DNA from: a virus
Lineage: Duplodnaviria > Caudoviricetes
DNA length: 27,871 bases
Direction: 5' to 3' (one strand)
Virus record (IMG/VR): IMGVR_UViG_3300033741_000014
Location: 1 to 27,871 of that record
Part shown: one piece after another, positions 265 to 18,871 of the stretch
Layout: each line of letters starts with the position of its first letter
How positions within the stretch are numbered: the stretch's first letter is position 1
The notes under the pieces: generated by a model
The model's input: the letters and a program-made list of their open reading frames with translations, nothing else
Told to the model about the DNA's origin: nothing
Databases searched by the model: none
Position numbers and translations under genes: made by a program

Positions 265-864
265 ATGACTCGCTCCACAGAAATCGCAACGGCACGCAAG
301 GTTGACACCGAGGTCGCTCGCCTCTGGGACGAGTTCCACAAGGTCAACGACGTCATCAATGAGTACTACCGCAAGATCGAGCGCACTCGCAAGGCCAGCG
401 TCTACTCCGAGGCCCGCCGACTGGCACTCGTTGCCGACTTCCAGGACTACATCGAGATCCTGACCCCCAAGGCACACGTCCTCCGTATGGCCGCTCGCGA
501 CTACGACGAGGCCAACTACAAGGGATGGACCCGCTTCTTCTTCGTGCAGCACATCCACAACACTCAGCACTGCTCCAGCTTCCGTCCCACGACCCGCATC
601 ATGTGGCTTCCCACGGTATCCGGCCTGACCGAGGTTGAGGCAGTCAAGGAACACGGGAAGACCCTTTGCACCATCTGCTTCCCGTCGGCACCTACCGAGC
701 TGACCACGGCACAGGTTGACACGAGCATCTGCACCGGACGCCGTGACTACACCGGCCCGAGCCGTCAGGGTTACTACTCCGGCAACTGGGGAACCTGCAC
801 CGATGGATGCCAGCGCGTCACGCTCACCTCCTCAGGCAAGCTCCGCAAGCACAAGAAGGCATAA
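265..864 (+). CDS. Hypothetical early protein with Cys/His clusters (possible Zn binding)
   Basis: 199 aa ORF, purine-rich RBS (AAGGGA), strong C/G-ending codon bias; HIHNTQHC and LCTICFP motifs. Confidence 0.85.
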   Translation: MTRSTEIATARKVDTEVARLWDEFHKVNDVINEYYRKIERTRKASVYSEARRLALVADFQDYIEILTPKAHVLRMAARDYDEANYKGWTRFFFVQHIHNTQHCSSFRPTTRIMWLPTVSGLTEVEAVKEHGKTLCTICFPSAPTELTTAQVDTSICTGRRDYTGPSRQGYYSGNWGTCTDGCQRVTLTSSGKLRKHKKA

Positions 865-876
865 CCCAGCTACACC

Positions 877-898
877 GGGGGAGGGTCAAACCTCCCCC
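877..898. other. GC-rich stem-loop after the 265-864 gene
   Basis: GGGGGAGG (877-884) / CCTCCCCC (891-898), 6-nt loop; followed by AAAAG rather than a U-tract. Confidence 0.6.
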
Positions 899-929
899 AA
901 AAGTAATTTGACTAAATGTGGACTTTTGG

Positions 930-958
930 CTTGTGGGACATCTAAGTTCATGTATAGT
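930..958 (+). promoter_or_regulatory. Putative sigma-A-like promoter
   Basis: CTTGTGG (930-936) then TATAGT (953-958), spacer 16-17 nt; upstream of AAGGAG RBS and ATG 1001. Confidence 0.55.
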
Positions 959-1000
959 TGTAATTACCAAGGCAAGCAACACAACATCAAGGAGTACACC

Positions 1001-1273
1001 ATGGCCAAGACAGTTCTTCTCCCCGTAGACGACAATCAGGGTTACGCACCGGAGCAGGTAAGCACCAGCGTCACCCTCCAGGACATGCTTGAAGCTATTG
1101 AGCAGGCCATCGAAGAATTCGGTGCAGACTCCAAGGTCGTTCTCAGCAACGGCCAGCGCACCGGGGCAGGCTTCGGTCGCATCCAGGCGTTCGGCCGTGA
1201 GGTAGTAATCAGCGACGCTAACCCGGACTACGACGAAGACGGCATGGAGACCGGCGACGACTTCCGCTTCTAG
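1001..1273 (+). CDS. Hypothetical acidic protein (90 aa)
   Basis: Start moved from 716 to ATG 1001, which follows an AAGGAG RBS; MAKTVLLPVDDNQGY...GDDFRF. Confidence 0.85.
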   Translation: MAKTVLLPVDDNQGYAPEQVSTSVTLQDMLEAIEQAIEEFGADSKVVLSNGQRTGAGFGRIQAFGREVVISDANPDYDEDGMETGDDFRF

Positions 1274-1294
1274 CAGTAAACCTGGAGGTTGGGC

Positions 1295-1323
1295 TTGCAC
1301 TCAGCCTCCAGGACCACTAGGCT
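1295..1323 (+). promoter_or_regulatory. Putative sigma-A-like promoter overlapping an inverted repeat
   Basis: TTGCAC (1295-1300), 17 nt, TAGGCT (1318-1323); the -35 lies at the centre of CCTGGAGG...CCTCCAGG (1281-1312). Confidence 0.65.
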
Positions 1324-1355
1324 TATAACATCAACCAAGCACAAGGAGAATCACA

Positions 1356-1526
1356 ATGGCATCCGAAAACACGACCCCGACCCCGTCCCCCTACACCGAA
1401 ATGGAAGATGCAATGACGTACTTCCGCATGGACCTTACCATCACGGACCTCAACCTTCTGGCCAAGCTTGGGCAGGATACCCCCGTCAGCGGCGACGCCA
1501 TCCGGGTCTATAGCCAGCTTGCCTAA
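1356..1526 (+). CDS. Hypothetical protein (56 aa), absent from the ORF track
   Basis: AAGGAG RBS, ATG 1356, MASENTTPTPSPYTEMEDAMTYFRMDLTITDLNLLAKLGQDTPVSGDAIRVYSQLA, TAA 1524-1526; fills the gap between two promoters. Confidence 0.8.
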   Translation: MASENTTPTPSPYTEMEDAMTYFRMDLTITDLNLLAKLGQDTPVSGDAIRVYSQLA

Positions 1527-1547
1527 ACCTAGAGCAAGGCGTATACT
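1519..1547 (+). promoter_or_regulatory. Putative sigma-A-like promoter for a leaderless transcript
   Basis: TTGCCT (1519-1524), 17 nt, TATACT (1542-1547), 6 nt, ATG 1554; no SD. Confidence 0.75.
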
Positions 1548-1553
1548 GAACAC

Positions 1554-1763
1554 ATGAAGAAAACACAGATCACTCTAGGCACACTGGTAGCGTCAGACCT
1601 CCTGGGAATGACCACACCGCAGACCATCTCAACGCCGGAGGGTTACACCTTCAGTTGGGACGAGGAAGCTGGCATGTACATTAACGACGGTCCTGAGTCC
1701 GTGTTCCTCTACATTGAAGGCGAAGAGCTTACGGCTGATTCCTACTACGAGATCAGCCACTAG
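1554..1763 (+). CDS. Hypothetical acidic protein (69 aa), probably leaderless
   Basis: ORF begins where the 1519-1547 promoter would initiate and is followed by a hairpin. Confidence 0.8.
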   Translation: MKKTQITLGTLVASDLLGMTTPQTISTPEGYTFSWDEEAGMYINDGPESVFLYIEGEELTADSYYEISH

Positions 1764-1768
1764 CCGAC

Positions 1769-1807
1769 AGGGCCACACCTAGCACCAGCGCGGCTAAGTG
1801 TGGCCTT
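1769..1807 (+). terminator. Putative terminator-like hairpin
   Basis: GGCCACAC (1771-1778) / GTGTGGCC (1798-1805) plus inner TAGC/GCTA, just after the stop codon; pyrimidine tail but weak U-tract. Confidence 0.5.
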
Positions 1808-1811
1808 CCCC

Positions 1812-1840
1812 TTGCGGGAAAATAATCCATGCGCTAAGCT
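1812..1840 (+). promoter_or_regulatory. Putative sigma-A-like promoter of the nucleotide-modification operon
   Basis: TTGCGG (1812-1817), 17 nt, TAAGCT (1835-1840); AAGGAGG RBS before ATG 1888. Confidence 0.7.
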
Positions 1841-1887
1841 AAACCTAGCCCGGTTCCCCGCCGGTCGACAGTCCAAGGAGGACTAGC

Positions 1888-2625
1888 ATGCTGCACAAGA
1901 ACACGATTGAAGATGTGGTGCTGGCACTTGCCAGCGCACCCATCGATTCCCGCACTGGTAATAAGGTGCTCTACTCGGTTGATTGGCTGGCCGACGCTGA
2001 CTCCATGGTCGGAAGCGTTAACGCCGACTGGGTGCGACGCGAACTTGCATGGTTCGCCGGAGGAAGCAACCGGATCAGTGACATGGAAGGTCCGGTACCC
2101 AAGCTCTTCCAGGCATGCGCTGGCATTGACGGCAAGGTCAACAGCGCCTACGGCCACATCCTGTTCTCAGACGACGACCTGCGACACCGCGACCGGAGCC
2201 TGTTTGACCGGGTGGTTGACACGTTCATCAACGAGGGTGCTGGCACACGACACGCGGTAGCCATCATCACCGACCGAGACGTGCACGAGCTGTCCACATA
2301 CAATGGACGCAACGACTTCATCTGCACTAACGCGCTCAACTTTATGGTTGACTCCGACAACCGCCTGCACATCATGGCACAGATGAGGAGCATGGACGCC
2401 GTGTTCGGATACCGTGCCGATTACTCCATGTGGGATTACCTGATGGAGTTCCTCCTGGGAAACCTGGAGATGGTATTCCCGGGCATCCAGCGGGGCGACA
2501 TCTCCTTCCAGGTGGCCAACCTGCACGTCTACCCCCGGCACTTCGACGCACTGAACAACGCGGCCGAGGCCATTGACGAAGCCAATGACCGCAAGGTGTG
2601 GCTGGATCAGAGCGTGACCAAGTGA
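1888..2625 (+). CDS. Thymidylate-synthase-superfamily enzyme, most likely dCMP hydroxymethylase (T4 gp42-like)
   Basis: RELAWF, VNSAYG, DFICTN (catalytic Cys146), MRSMDAVFGYRAD (Asp178), NLHVY. These follow T4 gp42 (RELEWY, INSNYG, DFMCTN, MRSNDVVFGFRND, SLHVY), not ThyA (LxPC, GLPFN). Confidence 0.85.
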   Translation: MLHKNTIEDVVLALASAPIDSRTGNKVLYSVDWLADADSMVGSVNADWVRRELAWFAGGSNRISDMEGPVPKLFQACAGIDGKVNSAYGHILFSDDDLRHRDRSLFDRVVDTFINEGAGTRHAVAIITDRDVHELSTYNGRNDFICTNALNFMVDSDNRLHIMAQMRSMDAVFGYRADYSMWDYLMEFLLGNLEMVFPGIQRGDISFQVANLHVYPRHFDALNNAAEAIDEANDRKVWLDQSVTK

Positions 2626-2942
2626 ACCCGTGGGAGATTCTGCTGACGCTACTTGGGTGGACGTTACTGACCGCCTCGTTTGTGGTAGTAGTAATCATCC
2701 TTCTGGCCGTGGTGTATGGTGTGGCGACATGGGTCCGTGGCCTGCGTACTGCCAAGCCTGCCAAGCAGGCTAAAGACGCCAAGCCATACCCAGCCGGACA
2801 GCCGTTGCCGGACTCCGAGCAGGACGACTACATGGCTGAGGCTACCGTCGTTGGAATAAGCCTGTACGGCAGCTATAACCCATCCCTGGAGGCCTTCAGA
2901 CAGGGCGCTCGCTGGGCTTGGACGTTCTTCCACCGCAAGTAA
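2622..2942 (+). CDS. Membrane protein (106 aa)
   Basis: GTG 2622 overlaps the upstream TGA (GTGA); long N-terminal hydrophobic segment. Confidence 0.75.
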   Translation: MNPWEILLTLLGWTLLTASFVVVVIILLAVVYGVATWVRGLRTAKPAKQAKDAKPYPAGQPLPDSEQDDYMAEATVVGISLYGSYNPSLEAFRQGARWAWTFFHRK

Positions 2943-2952
2943 CCCAAGTCTC

Positions 2953-2983
2953 CCCCGGCTCACTCACCAACTGTGGGCCGGGG
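2953..2983 (+). other. Intergenic stem-loop
   Basis: CCCCGGCTCAC (2953-2963) / GTGGGCCGGGG (2973-2983) with one G:U pair; no U-tract. Confidence 0.55.
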
Positions 2984-3009
2984 CAGCACTACCCAAGAGA
3001 GTCCACCTC

Positions 3010-3237
3010 ATGTCACAGACAATAGACCTCCATGGAGGCCCTTGGCACGGTAGAACCGTGGAACTGCCAGACGGCCAAGACCACTTCCATATCGTAGGAC
3101 CTATGGACCTGCCAGTAGACTACACCGCCGAGTCCGCTGACATGGAGATAGGCCAAGTGCACACGAGGGAAGGCATGTACTCCCGGGTATGCAGATCACG
3201 CAACTTTGAATGGGACGGATGGCTCAGCCATGACTAA
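3010..3237 (+). CDS. Hypothetical protein (75 aa)
   Basis: L.GGP..G motif common in small actinophage proteins; overlaps the next start. Confidence 0.75.
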   Translation: MSQTIDLHGGPWHGRTVELPDGQDHFHIVGPMDLPVDYTAESADMEIGQVHTREGMYSRVCRSRNFEWDGWLSHD

Positions 3238-4174
3238 CGAACACATTGAACTACTAGGATCGGCTAAGGTTAGCTGGCTCTATCCCATCTACGTGCCAAG
3301 CTACTCCAGGGCTGGAGAGGCACCGCTGCTGGAGATGCTGAAAGACGCTAACGCTTCTGTCCGCGCAAAGGTGCACGTCGTCGTCAGGCCGTCTGAGGTC
3401 AAGTCGTATGCACGTGCATACCCGTGGGCTACAATCGTCTCAGAACAGACTCCAGGGATCGGCCCGGCCCGAATGCGCTGCATGGTGGACGCCACCGAGC
3501 GTGGATACGGCCGGATAACAGTCCTTGACGACGACATCGTTCACGTGAGCCTCCTGGAACACACCGAGCGGCCCGACGGAAAGAACCACACGAGGCGATA
3601 CAGCAATAAGGTGAGCGGCATCCGTGAGCCGTACCTGCTGGTGAGGTCTCTAGCCGTCGCCTGTAGGCTTGCTGACGGCGTATTCGCCGAGCGCCCGGCT
3701 GCTGCATACGGGGCAGCCCGTAACGCGCTCTTCAGCGGAGACGTGGACGTCAGCGTGTGTGCTACCCTCAATAAGGGAAGCTTCCCGGCCTGTGTCATGT
3801 TCTTTGACGTAGCACGTTTCGCAATGCGGAAGATGCCACTGCCTTACCAGTACCACGGCGAGGACCTAGCCATGTTCCTGGACACCCTGTCTGGACGGCA
3901 GGAGGCATTCACCCTCACGAGTGTGGCCTATGATCAGCATGGTGGTATCACCTCTACTATCCCTCTGGACCCTCTCAGTACAGTGGGTCGGCCACACCTG
4001 AGCACTACCGACAAGTTCTACCCAGAGATTCACCCGTTTCTCAGGGTATCAATGAAGAATAAATTGGGAGGGGTTATGCGGATAGGTATAAACTGGATAC
4101 AGTGGTATAAAGCCACACACAGTGAACCCGTCATAATCCCTCTATCGTCCATCATCAATAAGGAGACCACCTAA
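3230..4174 (+). CDS. GT-A fold glycosyltransferase, resembling the nucleic-acid-base family (T-even beta-glucosyl-HMC alpha-glucosyltransferase / TAGT / GREB1-like)
   Basis: YPIYVPSYSRA, HVVVRPSEVKSY, GIGPAR, VLDDDI (DxD), GEDL. Start placed at ATG 3230, overlapping the upstream gene. Confidence 0.8.
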   Translation: MTNEHIELLGSAKVSWLYPIYVPSYSRAGEAPLLEMLKDANASVRAKVHVVVRPSEVKSYARAYPWATIVSEQTPGIGPARMRCMVDATERGYGRITVLDDDIVHVSLLEHTERPDGKNHTRRYSNKVSGIREPYLLVRSLAVACRLADGVFAERPAAAYGAARNALFSGDVDVSVCATLNKGSFPACVMFFDVARFAMRKMPLPYQYHGEDLAMFLDTLSGRQEAFTLTSVAYDQHGGITSTIPLDPLSTVGRPHLSTTDKFYPEIHPFLRVSMKNKLGGVMRIGINWIQWYKATHSEPVIIPLSSIINKETT

Positions 4175-4764
4175 TGTTCATCGCTTTTGAAGGACCAGAT
4201 AACGTCGGCAAGTCAACGACTGCCCAAGAGCTGTCCACAGACCACCACCCCTTCTACAACGTGACCAAGTCCATTCACGACTTTCAGACGCAGCTTGCCA
4301 AGGCCAAGGACGTTCCTGACAGCGTGGTTACCTACGACCGGATCGACTGGTTCAGTCACATGGTGTACCGGCTGTCACTGCCTGACCGCGACTGGAACGA
4401 CGATCGTCCTCGTACTGTGTTCGCCATGCCTGACACCCACTTGGTTATCAAGCTGCACCACCCAGACCTCTCGAACTTTATGGCCGACGAAGTTGTGAGC
4501 ACGCCTATCGCCGAGGTGAATCCTATGTATGGGTACTTCACCGGGTTCCTCATGGATATGAACATCGTGCGTAACTTCGCACTGTTCAAGACCATCTCAC
4601 TCGTGGAGGTGCGTAACGACCCAATCTCTGGCAGCTATAGCCAGCACCTGCGGGAGTTCTCCAGCCCTGTCATGGGTCTTGAGTCAGTTTCCACACGGTT
4701 AGTGGATACTAACGAAAAGCTGCTAGAGTTGCTACGGCTCGATGACAGCCTGCGAAACAACTGA
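4174..4764 (+). CDS. Thymidylate-kinase-like dNMP kinase
   Basis: FIAFEGPDNVGKST P-loop and YDR...FSHMVY motif; coupled to the GT gene by TAATG. Confidence 0.85.
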   Translation: MFIAFEGPDNVGKSTTAQELSTDHHPFYNVTKSIHDFQTQLAKAKDVPDSVVTYDRIDWFSHMVYRLSLPDRDWNDDRPRTVFAMPDTHLVIKLHHPDLSNFMADEVVSTPIAEVNPMYGYFTGFLMDMNIVRNFALFKTISLVEVRNDPISGSYSQHLREFSSPVMGLESVSTRLVDTNEKLLELLRLDDSLRNN

Positions 4765-5452
4765 CCACATACACCACGACCACATATTCAAGGTCGGAGT
4801 GTTGTGTGGTAGGTTGAATACCAAGTGGCCTCTAGCTGTACGTGAGGAGGCCACGGCTGAGCTCATGCGGTACCGTGACCAAGGCCTCATCATCCAAAAG
4901 TATGGGAAGGATCAAGAAGTGACTACCAAGGCCACACGTGCCCACGACGAGCCAGCTACGTTCAGCGGTCAGGGAATCCTGTTCGCAGTCATAGACGACC
5001 GAGAAGGTATGGGAAGCGGTCGCGTAACCACCATCGATATCATCTCAGACGCTATCGAGTCGGCCCTGGACGCCGGGCACTCCACCAGTGATGAGATTGC
5101 ACGGTTCCTGACCACCAGCGCCTTTCAGCACATCCCAGACAAGCGTGTACGGTTCAATAGCGTGCTCAAGGCTGGAGACGCGGTAGGTGCTCAAATTGTG
5201 CAGAAGCTTCACAACGCATATAGTGAGTTAGCCGACATGGCAGACGATGAAGATGATCCCAAGAAGAAGGCTGAAATAAAGGCCGAGGCAACGGGATTCG
5301 CTGAGGCACTCAATGTAGTTATCAGCCCGTTTAGCTGTGAAGACCCGGACGACCACCGACTGGTCAACTGGGATGAAGTAGACCGTATCACCGCTGCATT
5401 CGAAAAGGAACAGCGGTTCGTCCGCAGAGAGAGAAAGGGTAAGCCACAATGA
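4742..5452 (+). CDS. Hypothetical protein (start uncertain)
   Basis: 236 aa ORF overlapping both neighbours; no motif recognised. Confidence 0.75.
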   Translation: MTACETTDHIHHDHIFKVGVLCGRLNTKWPLAVREEATAELMRYRDQGLIIQKYGKDQEVTTKATRAHDEPATFSGQGILFAVIDDREGMGSGRVTTIDIISDAIESALDAGHSTSDEIARFLTTSAFQHIPDKRVRFNSVLKAGDAVGAQIVQKLHNAYSELADMADDEDDPKKKAEIKAEATGFAEALNVVISPFSCEDPDDHRLVNWDEVDRITAAFEKEQRFVRRERKGKPQ

Positions 5453-6129
5453 GCGACTACGGACCCACATGCTGCACCGGCGAGTGTTGTGGATTGGGTT
5501 CCTACTGCTGTGGACACCCAGACAACGATCATGAACATACAGAAGAAGAGGAAAACACAATGAGTGAACGCGACGACCTGACAGAGCAGGCTTTCCATCA
5601 GCCCCCCGTCACCAACGACAAGGTGACAATCGCCACCCTGAAGCGTGAGCTTCGTGAGGCTCGTGAACTGCTGGTAGTACGTGCCGACCACGCTGGCAGG
5701 CTGGCTGACGAGCTGGTGGCCTTGCGTGCTGGAGGCAACACTTCCGGAGCGGTGCAGATACTGTCACACAACGCAGAGACCGGCCTGGACTTCATGCTCG
5801 GTCTACAGGGAGACCTAGAAGACGTGTGGGGTCGGCGTGTGGACCCGGCTGACCCCGAGGCAGTGAGCACCTACGTTCGTGAAGTTGTCCTGTGTGCTGA
5901 GGACGAGCTGCACGAGGTGCTTGCCGAGGTGCACTGGAAGCCCTGGAAGGACAGCCGGGGCATCAAGGACCGCGACAAGTACCGCGAAGAAATGGCCGAC
6001 GTGCTGCACTTCGTTCTTGACCTGTACTTGGCAGGCGGCATCACCGGTCGCGAGATCATCGCTGACTACTTGGCCAAGAACAACGAGAACCTCGGCCGCA
6101 ATAAGAGCGCGGAATACCGGGCGTCATAA
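5449..6129 (+). CDS. All-alpha NTP pyrophosphohydrolase (dimeric dUTPase / T4 gp56 dCTPase / MazG-like); alternative start at 5560
   Basis: EDELHE, WKPWK, EEMADVLHF, YLAKNNEN..R motifs. Confidence 0.85.
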   Translation: MSDYGPTCCTGECCGLGSYCCGHPDNDHEHTEEEENTMSERDDLTEQAFHQPPVTNDKVTIATLKRELREARELLVVRADHAGRLADELVALRAGGNTSGAVQILSHNAETGLDFMLGLQGDLEDVWGRRVDPADPEAVSTYVREVVLCAEDELHEVLAEVHWKPWKDSRGIKDRDKYREEMADVLHFVLDLYLAGGITGREIIADYLAKNNENLGRNKSAEYRAS

Positions 6130-6590
6130 TGTCACGATCTTCATGGGACACCGTTTGGGCAGATGTTGCTCAGGCGGTGTCCCGTCGTAGTTCATGTGGC
6201 CGTGCGTCTGTCGGCGCTGTCTTGGTAAAGGATAACCGTGTGGTCTCGACCGGCTACAATGGCCCGGCCAGCGGGTACCCGGCTAATACTGGCTTGGGCT
6301 GTGCCAACTGGTGCACACGTGCCCAAGGAGAGACGCCTGAGAGCTCTCTGGGCTATGGCTACTCCTGCCCAAGCATCCACGCCGAGGCTAACGCCTTGCT
6401 ATATGCCAGCCGTGCCGAAACTGAAGGTGCGTTCATGTATGTGACGCATGCTCCTTGCGCCGACTGTGCCAAGCTCATTTCCAACTCAGGTGTGTCTAGG
6501 GTGGTCATGCTACAAGCACCAGAGGACCACAGACCAGACCCTGTGCCGTACCTGCAAACATGCGGAATAGAGGTGATGCTTTTCTCATGA
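6129..6590 (+). CDS. dCMP deaminase
   Basis: RSSC.R.SVGAVLV, TGYNG, HAEANA, PCADC zinc-deaminase motifs; TAATG coupling. Confidence 0.92.
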   Translation: MSRSSWDTVWADVAQAVSRRSSCGRASVGAVLVKDNRVVSTGYNGPASGYPANTGLGCANWCTRAQGETPESSLGYGYSCPSIHAEANALLYASRAETEGAFMYVTHAPCADCAKLISNSGVSRVVMLQAPEDHRPDPVPYLQTCGIEVMLFS

Positions 6591-7969
6591 GACTACAACT
6601 CAGAGACTCGCAGCAAGTGGCCCTGGAACGCCTGACTGAACCGGACCGACACTTTGCTGCACTGTGGGCTGAACCCCGTTCCGGGAAGACAGCGGTGGCT
6701 CTGAAGTGGGTTGAGCACGTGAAGCCAGCGGTGGTCGTTATAGTTGGACCGAAGATAGCGGAAGGGACCTGGAGAACCGAAGCTGCTAAATGGCTGACGA
6801 TAACCTACAGGTTCTATCCTCTAACGGCAGGCAACGCCTATCCCACTCCGGGTATGTTCAAGGGTGTGACCCTCCTGTTCGTGAACTATGAGCAGTTCGG
6901 AAAAGCACCGTGGCAGCGTCTTCGTCCTTTCCTGGCCACACTAGCCAAGAACATTGACGGGAAAGGGATGATGCTACTGGACGAGTCACACATGATAAAG
7001 ACGCCGTCGTCAGTCACTGGACGTAACATCCGTCCACTGGCTCACAAGTGGTATTACCGTCTTCTTATGACTGGGACACCAGTGACTAACCCGAACCAGA
7101 TAGACGCGGTGTATGGGCAGTGGACATTCCTTGACCCGGCCATCCGCGACGAGTGGCCTTCTGCGCGTGAATTCAGAGAGCACTTCGGGGAATGGACCAC
7201 TGTAAAGGGCTTCCCTGAACTTATCAGGCCTCGTAATCAATACCAGTTGAATCAGTACATTCAACCTAACGTGATAACTATGGTCGGTCCTGGTAACCCA
7301 GTGCCCATCAGACGTGTCCGTTATTCTGTCCCGGATAGTGTGATGAAACAACACAAGGACATGCTGAAGCACGGGATAGTTGAGATGGGTGGCCACACTG
7401 CCATCGGTCTAAACCCGCTGACACGGCTTCTTCGTATGCGGATGCTTGTGGGTGGCTGGCTGAAGGACGACAAGGGTGAATCGTTCACTGTGCCGGATGC
7501 TGCTCGTGCCCGGCTGGCAGCCTTGGGAAAGGTGCTGGAGCGCTGTGATGGGAAGATCATCATTGCCTGTACCCACTTGTGGGAGATCAAGCTGGTTCGC
7601 CGGTACCTGCGTCTCAAGGGTGTGGGCTACTTGCTTATCACAGGGGCCACACCAGATAAGAACAACGTGATTGAAGCCTTCCAGATGGACCGCGAGGCCC
7701 GTGTGTTGCTTGTGCAGCCTAGGACCGTGTCCATGGCCGTAGACATATCGGTGGCCAACGACCTGATCTGGTACACCAGCGACTTCAACTATGTGACGTT
7801 CAAGCAGGCGTCAGACCGCATCAAGCTGTCCCCGGCTAATCCCCACGTGTGGTTCTTGTGTGGCCGTGGCACAGTGGATGAGGACGTGTGGACGACACTG
7901 CAAGAGGACCACGCACACCTGTCCAAAGTCATTCAGCGCATCAAAAAACGACCTGGAAGAATGCACTAA
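6587..7969 (+). CDS. SF2 (SNF2-like) DNA helicase
   Basis: LRDSQ, EPRSGKT, LLDESH, MTGTP, QASDRI; start at ATG 6587 (ATGA overlap). Confidence 0.9.
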   Translation: MRLQLRDSQQVALERLTEPDRHFAALWAEPRSGKTAVALKWVEHVKPAVVVIVGPKIAEGTWRTEAAKWLTITYRFYPLTAGNAYPTPGMFKGVTLLFVNYEQFGKAPWQRLRPFLATLAKNIDGKGMMLLDESHMIKTPSSVTGRNIRPLAHKWYYRLLMTGTPVTNPNQIDAVYGQWTFLDPAIRDEWPSAREFREHFGEWTTVKGFPELIRPRNQYQLNQYIQPNVITMVGPGNPVPIRRVRYSVPDSVMKQHKDMLKHGIVEMGGHTAIGLNPLTRLLRMRMLVGGWLKDDKGESFTVPDAARARLAALGKVLERCDGKIIIACTHLWEIKLVRRYLRLKGVGYLLITGATPDKNNVIEAFQMDREARVLLVQPRTVSMAVDISVANDLIWYTSDFNYVTFKQASDRIKLSPANPHVWFLCGRGTVDEDVWTTLQEDHAHLSKVIQRIKKRPGRMH

Positions 7970-7988
7970 AAATAGTTGCCATCTGAGC

Positions 7989-8017
7989 TTGCGCTTATTG
8001 CGGAGTTCGGGCATACT
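7989..8017 (+). promoter_or_regulatory. Putative sigma-A-like promoter
   Basis: TTGCGC (7989-7994), 17 nt, CATACT (8012-8017), just after the helicase stop. Confidence 0.65.
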
Positions 8018-8147
8018 TATATTTATCAGCAACACAGGCTCAGGGCTAAGGCACCGCGACTGAGGCAAGGCGACACGGTCGGTCACCTCTTGTGTTACTG
8101 GTACACTTCATATAACCGACCTGCACTACCACCACAAGGAGATCATC

Positions 8148-8612
8148 ATGGCACCTCGCAGCAAAGCAGCAGTCCTGGACACCGAGCTCGACATCGAAGA
8201 CGTTGTCGAAGAGGCCGTCGCAGAGCCGACCGAAAAGCAGATCATCAACGACGGCATCGTCCGGGTGGTTGAGTCCACCGGCATCGACGTGCAGAAGAAC
8301 CGTTACAAGGCCATGCGAGCCATCGCATTCCAGGCGTTCAGCAACGCAATCGCCGACGGCACCTTCGACGAACTGGTGGACGAGGCCATTGCCAACGTCG
8401 ACAACCTCCCCGCCGGATGGGAGATTGAGCGCGGCGAAAAGGCCGAAGCTCCCGTCAAGGCACCTGCCAAGGTCACGAAGGCCACGAAGGTTGCCCCGGT
8501 GAAGGCCGAGACCCCGGTCAAGGCACCGGCCAAGCGTGCACCGGCCAAGGCCAAGGCAGCCGCGACCACCGAGACCGCTGCACGTCCGGCACGTCGCCGT
8601 CCCGCACGCTAG
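8148..8612 (+). CDS. Hypothetical protein, acidic N-terminus and Ala/Lys/Pro-rich histone-like tail
   Basis: AAGGAG RBS; strongly biased codons; repeated PVKAPAK; ends ARRRPAR. Confidence 0.88.
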   Translation: MAPRSKAAVLDTELDIEDVVEEAVAEPTEKQIINDGIVRVVESTGIDVQKNRYKAMRAIAFQAFSNAIADGTFDELVDEAIANVDNLPAGWEIERGEKAEAPVKAPAKVTKATKVAPVKAETPVKAPAKRAPAKAKAAATTETAARPARRRPAR

Positions 8613-8650
8613 TACGACCCACGGGTACCCTCTAACGAGGTGTCCGTGGA

Positions 8651-8723
8651 GGGCCAGTAGCTCAATCGGCAGAGCGCGTCGCACATTAGCGGCGAGGTAT
8701 AGGTTCGAATCCTATCTGGTCCA
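8651..8723 (+). tRNA. tRNA-like element with alanine acceptor identity and undetermined, non-canonical anticodon
   Basis: Acceptor GGGCCAG/CTGGTCC + A; D arm GCTC-AATCGGCA-GAGC; T arm ATAGG-TTCGAAT-CCTAT; anticodon arm CGTCGC-ACATTA-GCGGCG; no encoded CCA. Confidence 0.8.
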
Positions 8724-8859
8724 CGCAGCTAGCAGCCCTTAGTCCGGTTGCTTGAACTTCCTTCGTCATAGAGTACCCGAGCTTCGGCCGGGGTGGACAT
8801 GGAATCGGTATAGCCTCCGATGCAAGGTAAACGGCTCCTTATAACTTAGGAGTCCACCT

Positions 8860-10716
8860 ATGCAGTTGATTATCAGCGACGAACTTGCTGAGGTACAGGA
8901 GTACCTAGCACAGTCTACCGCTCCACTTATAGTGGACATCGAGACCACGGCATTGACCGTCGGCAAGGGCCACATCCTGTGCGTCGCTTTTGCACCATAC
9001 GACCGTGAAGACGTCATGGTCTGGTGGCCGCAAGACCTGACCGAGATAGCACAGCTACGCCTTCACAAGATGGTGGCACACAATGCGCCCTTCGACGAGC
9101 GCTGGCTCAAGAGCTACGGTGCTTCATGCCGTGTGGTGTGGGACACTATGTTCATGGCTTACCTATTAGACGAGAACCACCCCGTCGGCCTCAAGGACCT
9201 CGGTGAGCGCCTCCTGGGATACCAGTCGTGGTCTGACGATAATGTGGCACACCTCGGCGATGAGTTCCTGCCACACGTGCCCAAGGCTGCACAAGCCAAG
9301 TCCAAGCGTCGGATCAGCATGTATGCGGGTAAGGACGTGCACATCACACGTGAGCTGATGAAGTGGCAGCGCAAGCACATTCGCACGAACCTGAAGCCCC
9401 ACGAAGACCCGGTAAGAGTCATGCGAGACATCATGATACCTGCCATTGAGCCGCTTCGGCAGATGGAGAATAACCGCCTGCCTGTGCGCCTTGGCTTGGT
9501 TACTAAGACCAAGGAGGATGTGTCAAACCGCATTGCAGCTATTGAGAAGAAGCTGGATGCAAGTATTCCACCGAAGGACAGGTGGCCTGACTGGCTACAG
9601 AAGACGACTCCCAAGTGGGGTAACACTAACTGGACCAAGTGGTGGCTCTACGAGCATCAGGGTGCACTGTGCCCCCGTCGCACTAAGCCGACCAAGACAT
9701 GGCCAGAGGGTAACCCGGGAATGTCCCAGGAGGACTTGGGGAAGATAGACCATCCGGCAGCACGTCTGCTGAGCACCAGAAGCACGCTCTACAAGCAGCT
9801 CACCGGCTTCCTGGTGCCCCTGGAGGAGCGTACTGTCAACGGACGAGTAAGCACTAGCTTCAAGCTCACCGGAACTGTTACAGGACGACTCAGCAGCTCG
9901 AGTCCTGGAAAGGATGACCCCGGCATCAACTCGCAGCAGATACCACGCGAGAAGTCAACTCGCAACCTGTTCGGCGAAAAGGGGCTTGCATGGCTGGAGG
10001 TAGACTTCAGCCAGTTGGAACTACGTGTGGCCGCTGTGATGAGCGGCGATCCGACCATGATAGCGCTATTCGCGGCCGACGCTGACATCCACACATACAT
10101 CGCTTCCCGAGTTACCAAGAAGGACGAGAAGGACGTAACCAAGGCCGACCGTACCCTTGCTAAGGGTGTGAACTTCGGCTTCCTGTACGGTATGATGGCT
10201 AAGCACTTCGCGGACTACGTTCGTGAGAACTACGGTGTGATCATTACCAAGAAGGAAGCTGAAACATTCCGTGAGGAGTACTTCCTGAACTTCAACGGCC
10301 TGCCTGAGTGGTACCGTAAGCAACGGCAGGAAGCCCTGGAGTTCGGTGGTGTGCATAACGAGTTCGGTCGCTTTCGGCACTTGCCTCGCGTGTACCACGA
10401 GAACTTCTGGATACAAGAAAACGCATTCCGTCAGGCTATCAATTCCCCCGTGCAGTCCACGGGTAGTGACTTCATGCTAATCAGCTTGGCTCGTATGTCA
10501 CGTGACTTGCGACTGCCTGCACTTGGGGCTAAGCTAGTGACCACAGTTCACGACAGCGTCTGCATTACTGCACCATATAAGACAGCGCGCAAAGTTGGAC
10601 GTATCGTAAAAGACATTATGGAGCATGCAGATGACAACCTCGAACGCAAATTCTACCTCAAGGCGGACGTCACGATCTCGCGTTGCTGGGGAGGTGAACC
10701 GCTCGCCGAGTTCTAA
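8860..10716 (+). CDS. Family A DNA polymerase (3'-5' exonuclease + polymerase)
   Basis: Exo motifs DIETT, AHNAPFD, YAGKD; TGRLSS; motif A DFSQLELR; motif B RTLAKGVNFGFLYG; motif C VHDS. Confidence 0.96.
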   Translation: MQLIISDELAEVQEYLAQSTAPLIVDIETTALTVGKGHILCVAFAPYDREDVMVWWPQDLTEIAQLRLHKMVAHNAPFDERWLKSYGASCRVVWDTMFMAYLLDENHPVGLKDLGERLLGYQSWSDDNVAHLGDEFLPHVPKAAQAKSKRRISMYAGKDVHITRELMKWQRKHIRTNLKPHEDPVRVMRDIMIPAIEPLRQMENNRLPVRLGLVTKTKEDVSNRIAAIEKKLDASIPPKDRWPDWLQKTTPKWGNTNWTKWWLYEHQGALCPRRTKPTKTWPEGNPGMSQEDLGKIDHPAARLLSTRSTLYKQLTGFLVPLEERTVNGRVSTSFKLTGTVTGRLSSSSPGKDDPGINSQQIPREKSTRNLFGEKGLAWLEVDFSQLELRVAAVMSGDPTMIALFAADADIHTYIASRVTKKDEKDVTKADRTLAKGVNFGFLYGMMAKHFADYVRENYGVIITKKEAETFREEYFLNFNGLPEWYRKQRQEALEFGGVHNEFGRFRHLPRVYHENFWIQENAFRQAINSPVQSTGSDFMLISLARMSRDLRLPALGAKLVTTVHDSVCITAPYKTARKVGRIVKDIMEHADDNLERKFYLKADVTISRCWGGEPLAEF

Positions 10717-17923: not shown

Positions 17924-18871
17924 CTACTTAGCGGCCGAGGCTGCCTTAGCAGCAGCTTCCGATGCGACAACTGCCTGAGCATCCGCAAGCGCTTTGAGCG
18001 TTGCTGTCTGCTCTCGAATGATAACCGAGGCCACACGTGGGGCTGCCTGTGCGAACGCTTCAGCGAGGACCTCAGGATCGATGACGAGGTCTTGTAGGTC
18101 AGCAACGGACACCTTTATTCCCTTAGTGTTGAGTGCGTCTGCCACTGCCGAGGCCAGCTTCACGGGGTCCAGAGTGACAGGCGCTTGGGTGTTGTTAGCC
18201 AAGGCCAGTAGCCGGATCTGACCGTTCATCATATCAACCTCAGCTCGGTTGAATGTTTCCGGCCTGGAGGAAGTCTGGTTTGACACGATGAGGCGCTTGA
18301 ACAGGTCGTAGAACTGCATACTAGGCAGGCCACCCCATCCGTCCTCAGTAACGAGCCAGCCGGTTCCACCTGTATCCCATGCGAGTTTCATATCGTCATC
18401 CATTCTGTTAGTGTTTATGTTGATCGGTGTAGATCCGCTACCTGCGGTAGAGGACGTGAGTGAGAAATAGTTCCAAGGGTTATAACGGATACCCTTGTAT
18501 TCCAGATGCCGGTGTAGGTGCTGTGCCACCCCTCCAGTGTTACCGGAGTAGGCGATTAGCTGGCCTTGGTTGAAGAACTGATTGTCAGCTCCGGTGTAGC
18601 TGGATAGGTGCGAGAACACGTCTCCCCATCCAGGGTTATCCCTGTGCTCGAAGATCATGGAGTTACCGGCTGTGCCATTGTTAGGGCGGCGACGCACCCA
18701 CCCAGCAGTCGGAGCATACACAGGCGTCCCGACAGGGGCCACTAGGTCTACACCACCACGACCCGTTCCAGCCCTCTGGATGTGGTGGAGCCAGCTCACG
18801 TCCGGGTCTCTGTCGTCCAGGTAGATAATGACAGACGGGCCATTCAACACATAGTTCTTTAGTGCGGCCAT
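17924..18871 (-). CDS. Endolysin with M23 peptidase domain
   Basis: GVDLVAPVGTPVYAP, FSHLS, GQLIAYSGNTG, HLH; S/T/G linker; helical C-terminus; upstream of holin-like genes. Confidence 0.88.
   Translation of the reverse strand: MAALKNYVLNGPSVIIYLDDRDPDVSWLHHIQRAGTGRGGVDLVAPVGTPVYAPTAGWVRRRPNNGTAGNSMIFEHRDNPGWGDVFSHLSSYTGADNQFFNQGQLIAYSGNTGGVAQHLHRHLEYKGIRYNPWNYFSLTSSTAGSGSTPININTNRMDDDMKLAWDTGGTGWLVTEDGWGGLPSMQFYDLFKRLIVSNQTSSRPETFNRAEVDMMNGQIRLLALANNTQAPVTLDPVKLASAVADALNTKGIKVSVADLQDLVIDPEVLAEAFAQAAPRVASVIIREQTATLKALADAQAVVASEAAAKAASAAK

What the first reader, a model, noticed from the sequence alone, without database searches (positions are those of the whole stretch)
1888..6590. Compact T4-like cytosine hypermodification pathway in a small actinobacterial siphovirus
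Seen: one run of largely overlapping genes encodes a gp42-like dCMP hydroxymethylase, a base-type GT-A glycosyltransferase, a dNMP kinase, a gp56-like all-alpha pyrophosphatase and a dCMP deaminase. Established: in T4 the equivalent functions make hm-dCTP, remove dCTP, divert dCMP to dUMP and glycosylate hmC. Inference: this phage replaces some or all C with a glycosylated 5-hydroxymethylcytosine as anti-restriction armour, using a family A rather than family B polymerase. Generic annotation (thymidylate synthase, thymidylate kinase, MazG) would hide this. The sugar, the extent of substitution and prior description are unknown to me.
Basis: partly seen in the sequence, partly recalled or inferred. 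Interest (0 to 1): 0.85.

Follow-up and report, generated by a model that had tools for sequence, protein, structure and literature searches.

The report
Partial sugar-cytosine armour in Microbacterium phages
This uncultured relative of the common cluster EA Microbacterium phages carries a gene block, labelled 'thymidylate synthase' in GenBank but with the active site of phage T4's cytosine-modifying enzyme, that likely puts sugar-coated hydroxymethylcytosine into its DNA, though probably at only some cytosines, because its genome still avoids restriction sites as unmodified phages do.

Summary
The five genes are real, intact and at the stated places. The window is an uncultured cluster EA-type (Microbacterium) siphovirus. 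The 1888 protein's best solved relative is T4 gp42 (E 5e-28) and it keeps the published hydroxymethyl-dCMP signature (Cys146, Asp143, Asp170, Asp178), not the thymidylate, 5mC or 5-hydroxy-C signatures. The glycosyltransferase is a GT-A enzyme of the DNA-glycosylating TAGT family. Three corrections. (1) The block is not peculiar to this phage: 191 GenBank Microbacterium phage records have the synthase. (2) The core is synthase, kinase, a swappable pyrophosphatase and usually a glycosyltransferase; the dCMP deaminase is accessory (10 of 30 lineages). (3) Full T4-like armour is doubtful: the genome avoids C-containing restriction palindromes (0.62 of expected) like unmodified RB49 (0.63), unlike fully modified T4 (0.84) or Xp12 (0.88). 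Best reading: partial replacement of C by glycosylated hmC. I found no paper saying this for these phages, but synthase plus GT-A clusters are in print as a class. New variant of a known kind, testable at once on cultured phages with 0, 1 or 2 glycosyltransferases.

The parts
1888..2625 (+). dCMP hydroxymethylase-like synthase (T4 gp42 family), 245 aa; Glu52, Asp143, Cys146, Asp170, Asp178
   Evidence: signature from PMC13326640
2622..2942 (+). Small predicted membrane protein, 106 aa, variable slot; role unknown
   Evidence: hydrophobic N-terminus read from the sequence; 'membrane protein' in this slot in relatives
3010..3237 (+). Small protein of unknown function, 75 aa, directly before the glycosyltransferase in most relatives
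3230..4174 (+). GT-A glycosyltransferase, TAGT family, 314 aa; Arg27, Asp100-Asp102, Glu211-Asp212
4174..4764 (+). P-loop nucleoside monophosphate kinase, 196 aa; predicted hm-dCMP kinase
4742..5452 (+).
5449..6129 (+). All-alpha NTP pyrophosphatase, dimeric dUTPase/gp56 type; catalytic part about residues 105-226; predicted dCTPase/dUTPase
6129..6590 (+). dCMP deaminase, 153 aa; accessory
6587..7969 (+). SNF2-type helicase, overlapping the deaminase stop; the run continues into it
8860..10716 (+). Family A DNA polymerase with 3'-5' exonuclease; would incorporate hm-dCTP

Best explanation
The block is the conserved nucleotide module of cluster EA-type phages, and it likely makes 5-hydroxymethyl-dCTP, puts it into phage DNA at probably only a share of cytosines, and likely adds a sugar to those bases. 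Steps: (1) the 1888 enzyme would convert dCMP to hm-dCMP with methylene-tetrahydrofolate and water (signature residues shown, activity inferred); (2) the 4174 kinase and a host diphosphate kinase would make hm-dCTP (inferred from position and 30-of-30 linkage); (3) the 5449 pyrophosphatase would turn dCTP and dUTP into monophosphates, lowering the competitor and feeding step 1 (inferred); (4) the family A polymerase would use a mixed dCTP/hm-dCTP pool, giving partial substitution (inferred from site avoidance); (5) the 3230 enzyme would move a sugar from a host nucleotide-sugar onto hmC in DNA (family and fold shown, acceptor and sugar unknown; no sugar-making gene was recognised in the window); (6) the deaminase is an optional add-on that would send dCMP to dUMP for the host's thymidylate synthase. 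Partial cover would thin out cuttable sites, and the sugar would hide hmC from some hmC-reading nucleases, leaving selection against common palindromes.
For: Synthase: best PDB match T4 gp42, E 4.7e-28; Asp at ThyA positions 143, 169 and 177 as in gp42, unlike ThyA (Leu, Asp, Asn) and RB69 gp48 (Glu, Asn, Asp) (rule from PMC13326640). The Asp170...Asp178 motif is in 89 of 93 EA-type loci (copies included), the other 4 being cut at contig ends, and in 47 of 51 from a scan whose seeds lay elsewhere. The EA clade (support 99) joins the gp42 group (96) in a quick tree. No DHFR match in EA-type genomes, as expected for a hydroxymethylase. Glycosyltransferase: TAGT above cut-off, R..DDD..ED motif of tested 5hmC-DNA glycosyltransferases, model pLDDT 94 matching TAGT proteins and a beta-glucosyl-HMC-alpha-glucosyltransferase, E 3e-12. 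Linkage in 30 lineages: kinase 30, pyrophosphatase slot 30 (12 gp56-like, 18 MazG/PRA-PH type, never both), glycosyltransferase 29 (one only a weak TAGT match). The MazG type matches a gene next to the synthase of fully 5mC-substituted Xp12 (40%, E 3e-13). A Microbacterium testaceum enzyme, Mte37I, cuts beside glucosyl-hmC (PMC3627594 tables), so the genus is armed against such DNA. Partial: C-palindromes 215 seen against 346 +/- 16 expected, 8 of 28 testable sites strongly avoided; 26 of 30 lineages below 0.8; T4 0.84 and Xp12 0.88.
Against: No chemistry exists for any EA phage in what I could search. The most avoided sites are G+C-only hexamers (GGGCCC 0.01, GGCGCC 0.06 of expected), which partial substitution should protect best; that fits modification-dependent cutting or very low substitution as well. 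EA4 phages have no glycosyltransferase, so the sugar is dispensable. The nearest T-even fold match adds a second sugar to glucose, not to hmC (my knowledge of T2/T6), and most GT-A contigs in Pyle et al. had no base-modifying neighbour. The pyrophosphatase is as close to dUTPases as to gp56. The EA synthases all have Met where gp42-like proteins have Asn (position 169). The avoidance controls have other hosts and are 45-50 kb parts of their genomes.
Confidence: 0.48

Rival explanations
1. Complete T4-like replacement: every C is hmC, mostly glycosylated, and the palindrome avoidance comes from modification-dependent nucleases that read modified palindromes, from enzymes blind to the modification, or from history.
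For: Same enzyme evidence as the main reading. The pyrophosphatase slot is never empty. G+C-only palindromes are the most avoided. The two deepest EA-type lineages show little avoidance (1.07 and 0.85).
Against: T4 and Xp12 show 1 of 34 and 0 of 32 strongly avoided sites against 8 of 28 here. Full hmC alone blocks 82% and glucosyl-hmC 94% of 227 Type II enzymes (PMC7653180 abstract). Avoidance holds in both genome arms and within the module (39 against 58 +/- 7), so it was not imported with the structural genes. Which sites are avoided differs by lineage, as with ordinary Type II enzymes.
Confidence: 0.22
2. The module does not modify virion DNA to any useful degree: hm-dCMP is a side product or a tool to disturb host pools, and the glycosyltransferase acts on a protein, the virion or the host surface.
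For: Avoidance equals that of unmodified RB49. PDB fold matches are protein and glycan transferases. A predicted membrane protein sits in the run.
Against: Synthase, kinase and pyrophosphatase are kept together in 30 of 30 lineages beside helicase and polymerase. Viral fold matches are TAGT and hmC-DNA glucosyltransferase; the PDB matches are far weaker (E 1e-6, TM below 0.5). Avoidance is strongest in the phage without a glycosyltransferase (Golden 0.51) and weakest among whole EA genomes in the one with two (Librie 0.76) (single genomes).
Confidence: 0.13
3. The end product is a thymine analogue: hm-dCMP is deaminated to hm-dUMP and the JGT-like enzyme makes a base J-like sugar-hmU, perhaps helped by the aGPT-Pplase1-like protein encoded upstream.
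For: A dCMP deaminase is in the run; the GT-A family is related to the base J glucosyltransferase; the same phage encodes a PF18723 protein, a family tied to hmU pathways. It would also leave C-rich sites unprotected.
Against: The deaminase is missing in 20 of 30 lineages and in all 7 whole cultured EA genomes tested; PF18723 is missing in 13 of 23 lineages with enough upstream DNA. No P-loop 5-hmU DNA kinase or clade 2 transferase was recognised in the window.
Confidence: 0.08
4. The synthase reads dCMP but makes another C5 product (5-hydroxy-C or 5-methyl-C).
For: gp42-like enzymes include flavin-dependent hydroxylases. The EA clade is a long branch with its own Met169.
Against: It lacks the D169N mark of hydroxylases; it has acidic Asp143 and no DHFR partner, unlike Xp12 and the EB phages.
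Confidence: 0.06
5. Ordinary thymidine-supply genes, as annotated: thymidylate synthase, thymidylate kinase, dUTPase, dCMP deaminase.
For: GenBank labels; Pfam names; deaminase and dUTPase-type enzyme tend to co-occur (8 of 10).
Against: Asp178 where dUMP enzymes have Asn; Asp143; far below all thymidylate synthase cut-offs in NCBIfam; no DHFR.
Confidence: 0.03

Closest known systems
T-even glucosyl-hmC pathway (T4 gp42, gp56, gp1, cd, alpha- and beta-glucosyltransferase)
   Same: gp42-family synthase with the same signature residues; gp56-like pyrophosphatase (28%); a monophosphate kinase; a dCMP deaminase; a DNA-type glycosyltransferase.
   Different: GT-A/TAGT enzyme rather than the GT-B alpha/beta enzymes; thymidylate/cytidylate-type kinase, no gp1 match; family A polymerase; 40 kb siphovirus of a probably actinobacterial host; no recognised counterpart of the T4 nucleases that remove C-containing DNA; strong restriction-site avoidance, which T4 lacks.
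T2/T6-type beta-glucosyl-HMC-alpha-glucosyltransferase
   Same: Closest named T-even match by profile (PHROG 842, E 2e-12) and by predicted fold (E 3e-12, TM 0.62).
   Different: That enzyme adds a second glucose after an alpha-glucosyltransferase (recalled); here there is no such first enzyme, so the protein would have to act on hmC itself. EA5 phages have two paralogues in tandem.
TET-associated GT-A glycosyltransferases of Pyle et al. (bioRxiv 10.1101/2023.12.21.572611)
   Same: Same R..DDD..ED motif and Pfam family; shown to add sugars to 5hmC in DNA; the paper reports many GT-A genes beside thymidylate synthase homologues.
   Different: The tested enzymes work with a methyltransferase and TET enzyme after replication; the synthase-linked class was only counted in the section I read. 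No mention of Microbacterium in the main text; its Table S4 and Fig. S13 could not be seen.
5-hydroxy-C arabinosylation of RB69 and DLP3 (PMC13326640)
   Same: dCMP-specific synthase, kinase and glycosyltransferase in one cluster.
   Different: Those synthases carry D169N and a flavin and come with GT-B enzymes and sugar-making genes; this one keeps Asp.
Xanthomonas phage Xp12 (all C as 5mC)
   Same: Small-genome tailed phage with a dCMP-specific synthase, dCMP deaminase and a MazG-type gene related to the EA MazG type.
   Different: Methyl product with DHFR beside it, no site avoidance, no glycosyltransferase annotated in the 50 kb read.
Cluster EA Microbacterium phages (PMC7302621)
   Same: Same gene order and 57-82% protein identity across replication and tail genes.
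   Different: This phage has the gp56-type pyrophosphatase and a deaminase where the cultured ones examined have a MazG/PRA-PH enzyme and no deaminase; lower G+C; the paper lists the gene only as thymidylate synthase.

Membership tests
dCMP hydroxymethylase (T4 gp42 family) | Catalytic Cys and Glu of the thymidylate synthase fold | tested here: met
   Cys146 and Glu52 align with gp42
dCMP hydroxymethylase (T4 gp42 family) | Asp at ThyA position 177 (dCMP preference) | tested here: met
   Asp178; 89 of 93 EA-type loci, 4 truncated
dCMP hydroxymethylase (T4 gp42 family) | Acidic residue at ThyA position 143 (water access) | tested here: met
   Asp143 (rule)
dCMP hydroxymethylase (T4 gp42 family) | Makes hm-dCMP from dCMP | not testable with these tools
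   needs an assay
5-hydroxy-dCMP synthase (RB69 gp48) | Asn at ThyA position 169 | tested here: not met
   Asp170 here, Asn in RB69 gp48
Canonical thymidylate synthase ThyA | Asn177 and hydrophobic 143 | tested here: not met
   Asp at both; 23 bits against a cut-off of 327
TAGT / JGT-like DNA glycosyltransferases | PF20691 match and R..DDD..ED motif | tested here: met
   37.4 bits against cut-off 27.5; motif invariant in 65 of the 120 listed homologues that were aligned
TAGT / JGT-like DNA glycosyltransferases | GT-A fold | tested here: met
   predicted model, pLDDT 94, TM 0.56-0.69 to the best TAGT proteins
TAGT / JGT-like DNA glycosyltransferases | Sugar transfer to a hydroxymethyl base in DNA | not testable with these tools
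   needs an assay
T4 gp56 dCTPase-dUTPase | All-alpha pyrophosphatase with the E..E / WK.WK / E..D motifs | tested here: met
   aligned with gp56
T4 gp56 dCTPase-dUTPase | dCTP as substrate, hm-dCTP spared | tested here: inconclusive
   as close to dimeric dUTPases; only context speaks for dCTP
T4 gp1 dNMP kinase | Sequence match to gp1 | tested here: not met
   profile search of PDB sequences gave cytidylate/thymidylate kinases and YorR, no gp1 among 21 matches
T-even glucosyl-hmC system | Complete replacement of C in virion DNA | tested here: inconclusive
   indirect test goes against it: palindrome avoidance 0.62 against 0.84 for T4; needs LC-MS
T-even glucosyl-hmC system | GT-B alpha- or beta-glucosyltransferase | tested here: not met
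   the only glycosyltransferase in the window is GT-A; about 30% of the genome was not in the window, of which 6 kb were read in L098

The most novel reading that the evidence does not exclude
Cluster EA, the most often isolated Microbacterium phages, carry a plug-and-play cytosine modification not yet described in any actinobacterial phage: hmC with no sugar, one sugar, two sugars or a different sugar according to subcluster, and in the lineages with the stand-alone aGPT-Pplase1-like protein possibly a non-sugar group on hmC. Their loss of G+C-only palindromes would then be the footprint of host nucleases that cut the modified sites, while the neighbouring cluster EB answers the same hosts with full 5-methylcytosine.
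Probability: 0.2. Interest if true: 0.85.

Novelty: new variant of a known kind. Interest (0 to 1): 0.62.

Why it matters
It re-reads a gene carried by 191 GenBank Microbacterium phage records as a cytosine-modifying enzyme, and predicts modified DNA in a large, cultured, harmless phage group. The group offers natural knock-outs and duplications (no glycosyltransferase in EA4, two in EA5, divergent ones in EA3 and EA6, two unrelated pyrophosphatases), so the sugar, the extent of substitution and the defence it answers can be tested with stock phages. If substitution is partial, it shows a T4-like kit used in a different way; if complete, the site avoidance points to unknown modification-dependent nucleases in Actinobacteria.

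Tried and rejected
Nanopore runs of an EA1 stretch, to look for miscalls at C: none was listed, so no reads were laid. Bacterial and archaeal genomes: no relative of the EA synthase found with the two seed patterns. The 236-aa protein at 4742: no Pfam, NCBIfam or PDB match, ESM Atlas scores 0.78 or less, and its fold job did not finish. PDB sequence searches with the glycosyltransferase gave nothing. The wide profile search of protein representatives and the wide structural search could not be run, so distant relatives of the glycosyltransferase are less fully mapped. Promoter and terminator scans of 800-8900 were at chance level. I first took the EB phages as unmodified controls and dropped that: their synthase has Asp177 and a DHFR. 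Avoidance did not differ between lineages with the two pyrophosphatase types (0.73 against 0.70, p 0.21), and the deaminase did not track G+C (p 0.17). The careful tree did not finish; the quick one has long branches for ThyA and RB69 gp48. Iyer et al. 2013 and the journal version of Pyle et al. were not held.
Full report
WHAT THE WINDOW IS. It is 27.9 kb of an uncultured siphovirus; the same phage lies on a 39,690-base contig (L098, 10,621 of 10,622 overlapping bases identical). The flagged stretch matches 191 phage records, all Microbacterium phages, at about 69% DNA identity. Replication and tail proteins are 57-82% identical to six cultured cluster EA genomes. It is therefore EA-type. The host is not shown: G+C is 56% and the endolysin has no match in the EA genomes held.

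OBSERVATION. The five genes are intact and overlap as described, with three further ORFs between them and the run continuing into a helicase. Confirmed.

THE SYNTHASE. Its best solved relative is T4 gp42 (E 4.7e-28); the best true thymidylate synthase scores E 0.01. Lee et al. 2026 (PMC13326640; I read the abstract and sections 24, 28 and 29, not the supplement) give three diagnostic positions in ThyA numbering: Asp177 for dCMP, an acidic 143 for a non-methyl product, Asn169 for 5-hydroxy-dCMP. The window protein has Asp, Asp and Asp, the gp42 pattern; RB69 gp48 and ThyA in the same alignment show their own patterns. Of 93 EA-type loci (copies included), 89 show the Asp170...Asp178 motif and 4 are cut short; 89 show Asp143-Cys146. 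The viral scan was seeded on two of these motifs, but the metagenome scan was not and gave 47 of 51. A quick tree puts the 30 EA lineages in one clade (99) joined to the gp42 group (96); the careful tree did not finish. Two EB DHFR queries found no match in any EA-type sequence; a hydroxymethylase does not oxidise its folate and needs none (established knowledge).

THE GLYCOSYLTRANSFERASE. Pfam TAGT, above cut-off. The R..DDD..ED motif named by Pyle et al. for enzymes that glycosylate 5hmC in DNA (bioRxiv 10.1101/2023.12.21.572611; passages and section 9 read, supplements closed) is invariant in the 65 homologues aligned out of 120 listed. The model (pLDDT 94) matches TAGT proteins and a T-even beta-glucosyl-HMC-alpha-glucosyltransferase (E 3e-12, TM 0.62); PDB matches are generic GT-A enzymes. 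The sugar cannot be read from this.

KINASE, PYROPHOSPHATASE, DEAMINASE. The kinase is a P-loop monophosphate kinase with only weak matches to cytidylate and thymidylate kinases and none to gp1. The pyrophosphatase aligns with T4 gp56 (28%) and as well with dimeric dUTPases. The deaminase's 40 best phage matches are from Micrococcus, Gordonia, Mycobacterium, Rhodococcus and one unnamed actinomycete phage, none from Microbacterium.

WHAT IS CORE. Of 93 EA-type loci, 61 span synthase to helicase and fall into 30 lineages at 92% identity. Kinase 30 of 30; pyrophosphatase slot 30 of 30, filled by a gp56-type (12) or an unrelated MazG/PRA-PH type (18), never both; glycosyltransferase 29 (one a weak match); the unknown 236-aa protein 29; deaminase 10. 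A slot always filled by one of two unrelated enzymes points to a needed job. The MazG type matches a gene beside the synthase of Xp12, a phage with all C methylated (40%, E 3e-13), which supports dCTP removal as that job. In GenBank 191 Microbacterium records have the synthase and 174 this glycosyltransferase at E 0.001. EA4 has none, EA5 two, EA3 and EA6 divergent ones.

A TEST THAT GOES AGAINST FULL ARMOUR. If all C were modified, C-containing restriction sites should be free to drift: T4gt and T4 DNA resist 82% and 94% of 227 Type II enzymes (PMC7653180, abstract and passages). Against a synonymous-codon shuffle, the window has 215 C-containing six-base palindromes where 346 +/- 16 are expected (0.62), with 8 of 28 testable sites at a fifth or less of expectation, among them CAGCTG 0 of 14 and GCCGGC 0 of 11. 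A Markov null gives the same 0.62. Controls: T4 45 kb 0.84 (1 of 34), Xp12 50 kb 0.88 (0 of 32), RB49 45 kb, recalled as unmodified, 0.63 (13 of 43); 24 of the 51 distant gp42-like viral loci, median 0.96. Of 30 EA lineages 26 are below 0.8; the effect holds in both arms and in the module itself. In 28 pooled lineages (the two deepest left out) palindromes have a median of 0.71 and other hexamers 0.97; the shuffle also flags A+T runs, an artefact shared with EB. So these genomes are, or long were, cut at C-containing sites. Partial substitution explains this. So could nucleases that need the modification: the most avoided sites are G+C-only (GGGCCC 0.01, GGCGCC 0.06), and a Microbacterium testaceum enzyme, Mte37I, cuts beside glucosyl-hmC (PMC3627594, two table rows). 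The controls have other hosts, so the test is indirect. The two EB phages (0.99) were first meant as unmodified controls, but their own synthase has Asp177 with a DHFR, so they are probably 5mC phages and fit the pattern.

MECHANISM AND ODDS. Synthase makes hm-dCMP: about 0.85. hmC reaches virion DNA: about 0.75. Partial, glycosylated hmC as set out in Best explanation: 0.48. Full T4-like replacement 0.22; no useful DNA modification 0.13; sugar-hmU 0.08; another C5 product 0.06; plain thymidine supply 0.03. All enzyme activities are inferred; none is shown.

OUTSIDE THE WINDOW. The same phage encodes a stand-alone PF18723 protein about 650 bases before base 1. In Lee et al. 2021 (PMC8989533, passages) the tested 5-hmU DNA kinases are P-loop proteins and the tested transferases are clade 2; this helical family is recalled as clade 1, with no function shown in the passages I read. 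It is optional (10 of 23 lineages).

WHAT IS IN PRINT. Seven searches on Microbacterium or actinobacterial phages with modification terms found no paper reporting modified cytosine in EA phages; the library lacks most subscription journals. Jacobs-Sera et al. 2020 (PMC7302621, passages) list the gene as thymidylate synthase; a 2026 EA5 announcement (PMC13741009, first part) notes two glycosyltransferases without a function. PMC5889632, PMC12908700 and PMC13216743 (passages) added nothing on these phages. Synthase plus GT-A clusters are in print as a class, and Table S4 and Fig. S13 of that preprint, which I could not see, may list EA genomes. Unchecked notes from this scan describe similar cassettes in other small phages; they lower uniqueness and are not used as support.

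VERDICT. Real, correctly spotted, and wider than one genome. It works like the T4 pathway at the nucleotide level but is not a member of the T-even system: different glycosyltransferase fold, kinase and polymerase, and probably incomplete substitution. New variant of a known kind; interest 0.62, mainly because a cultured phage group with natural knock-outs makes it directly testable and because the site avoidance is unexplained.

Noticed in passing
L098:4627-5469 (same phage, about 650 bases before window base 1): A stand-alone PF18723 protein (HMUDK_hel, the aGPT-Pplase clade 1 helix-hairpin-helix family; E 1e-34). Present in EA3, EA4, EA5 and EA6 phages and 10 of 23 lineages with enough upstream DNA; kept in EA4, which has no glycosyltransferase. 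Function unknown.
   Followed up: partly
L152:38333-39265 and L153:36227-37141 (cluster EB phages Dismas and Armstrong): Their 'thymidylate synthase' has Asp at ThyA position 177 and a hydrophobic 143, with a DHFR and a gp56-like 'dUTPase' in the genome, like Xp12; they show no general C-palindrome avoidance. Cluster EB probably has 5-methylcytosine DNA. One paper search found nothing on it.
   Followed up: partly
L016:36713-37969 (Theresita, EA7): Same EA structural genes but no synthase block; it has a PurA-like gene (recalled as the aminoadenine pathway) and the strongest palindrome avoidance seen (0.49), including A-containing sites.
   Followed up: partly
L008:31787-33696, L007:32641-33573, L015:32779-33666, L009:33208-33891: The glycosyltransferase slot holds two paralogues (EA5), a 24-26% divergent TAGT (EA6), a barely recognisable one annotated as hypothetical (EA3), or nothing (EA4).
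   Followed up: yes
window 4742-5452: 236-aa protein kept between kinase and pyrophosphatase in 29 of 30 lineages and duplicated in the deepest one; no family found.
   Followed up: partly
L040-L042, L135-L139, L046: Deep-branching EA-type phages of 52-54% G+C with the same core and little or no site avoidance (1.07, 0.85); candidates for full substitution or a different host.
   Followed up: no
L002:10087-10680 (Teagan gp42, 'phosphoesterase'): 2H phosphoesterase with a weak match to anti-CBASS Acb1 (E 0.009, below cut-off) in the slot where this phage has its deaminase.
   Followed up: no
window 2943-3009: The only gap in the run holds an inverted repeat that could form a hairpin (read from the sequence); not scored as a terminator.
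   Followed up: no
window 17924-18871 (-): M23 peptidase endolysin with no match in 7 EA and 2 EB genomes, a hint that the host differs from M. foliorum.
   Followed up: no
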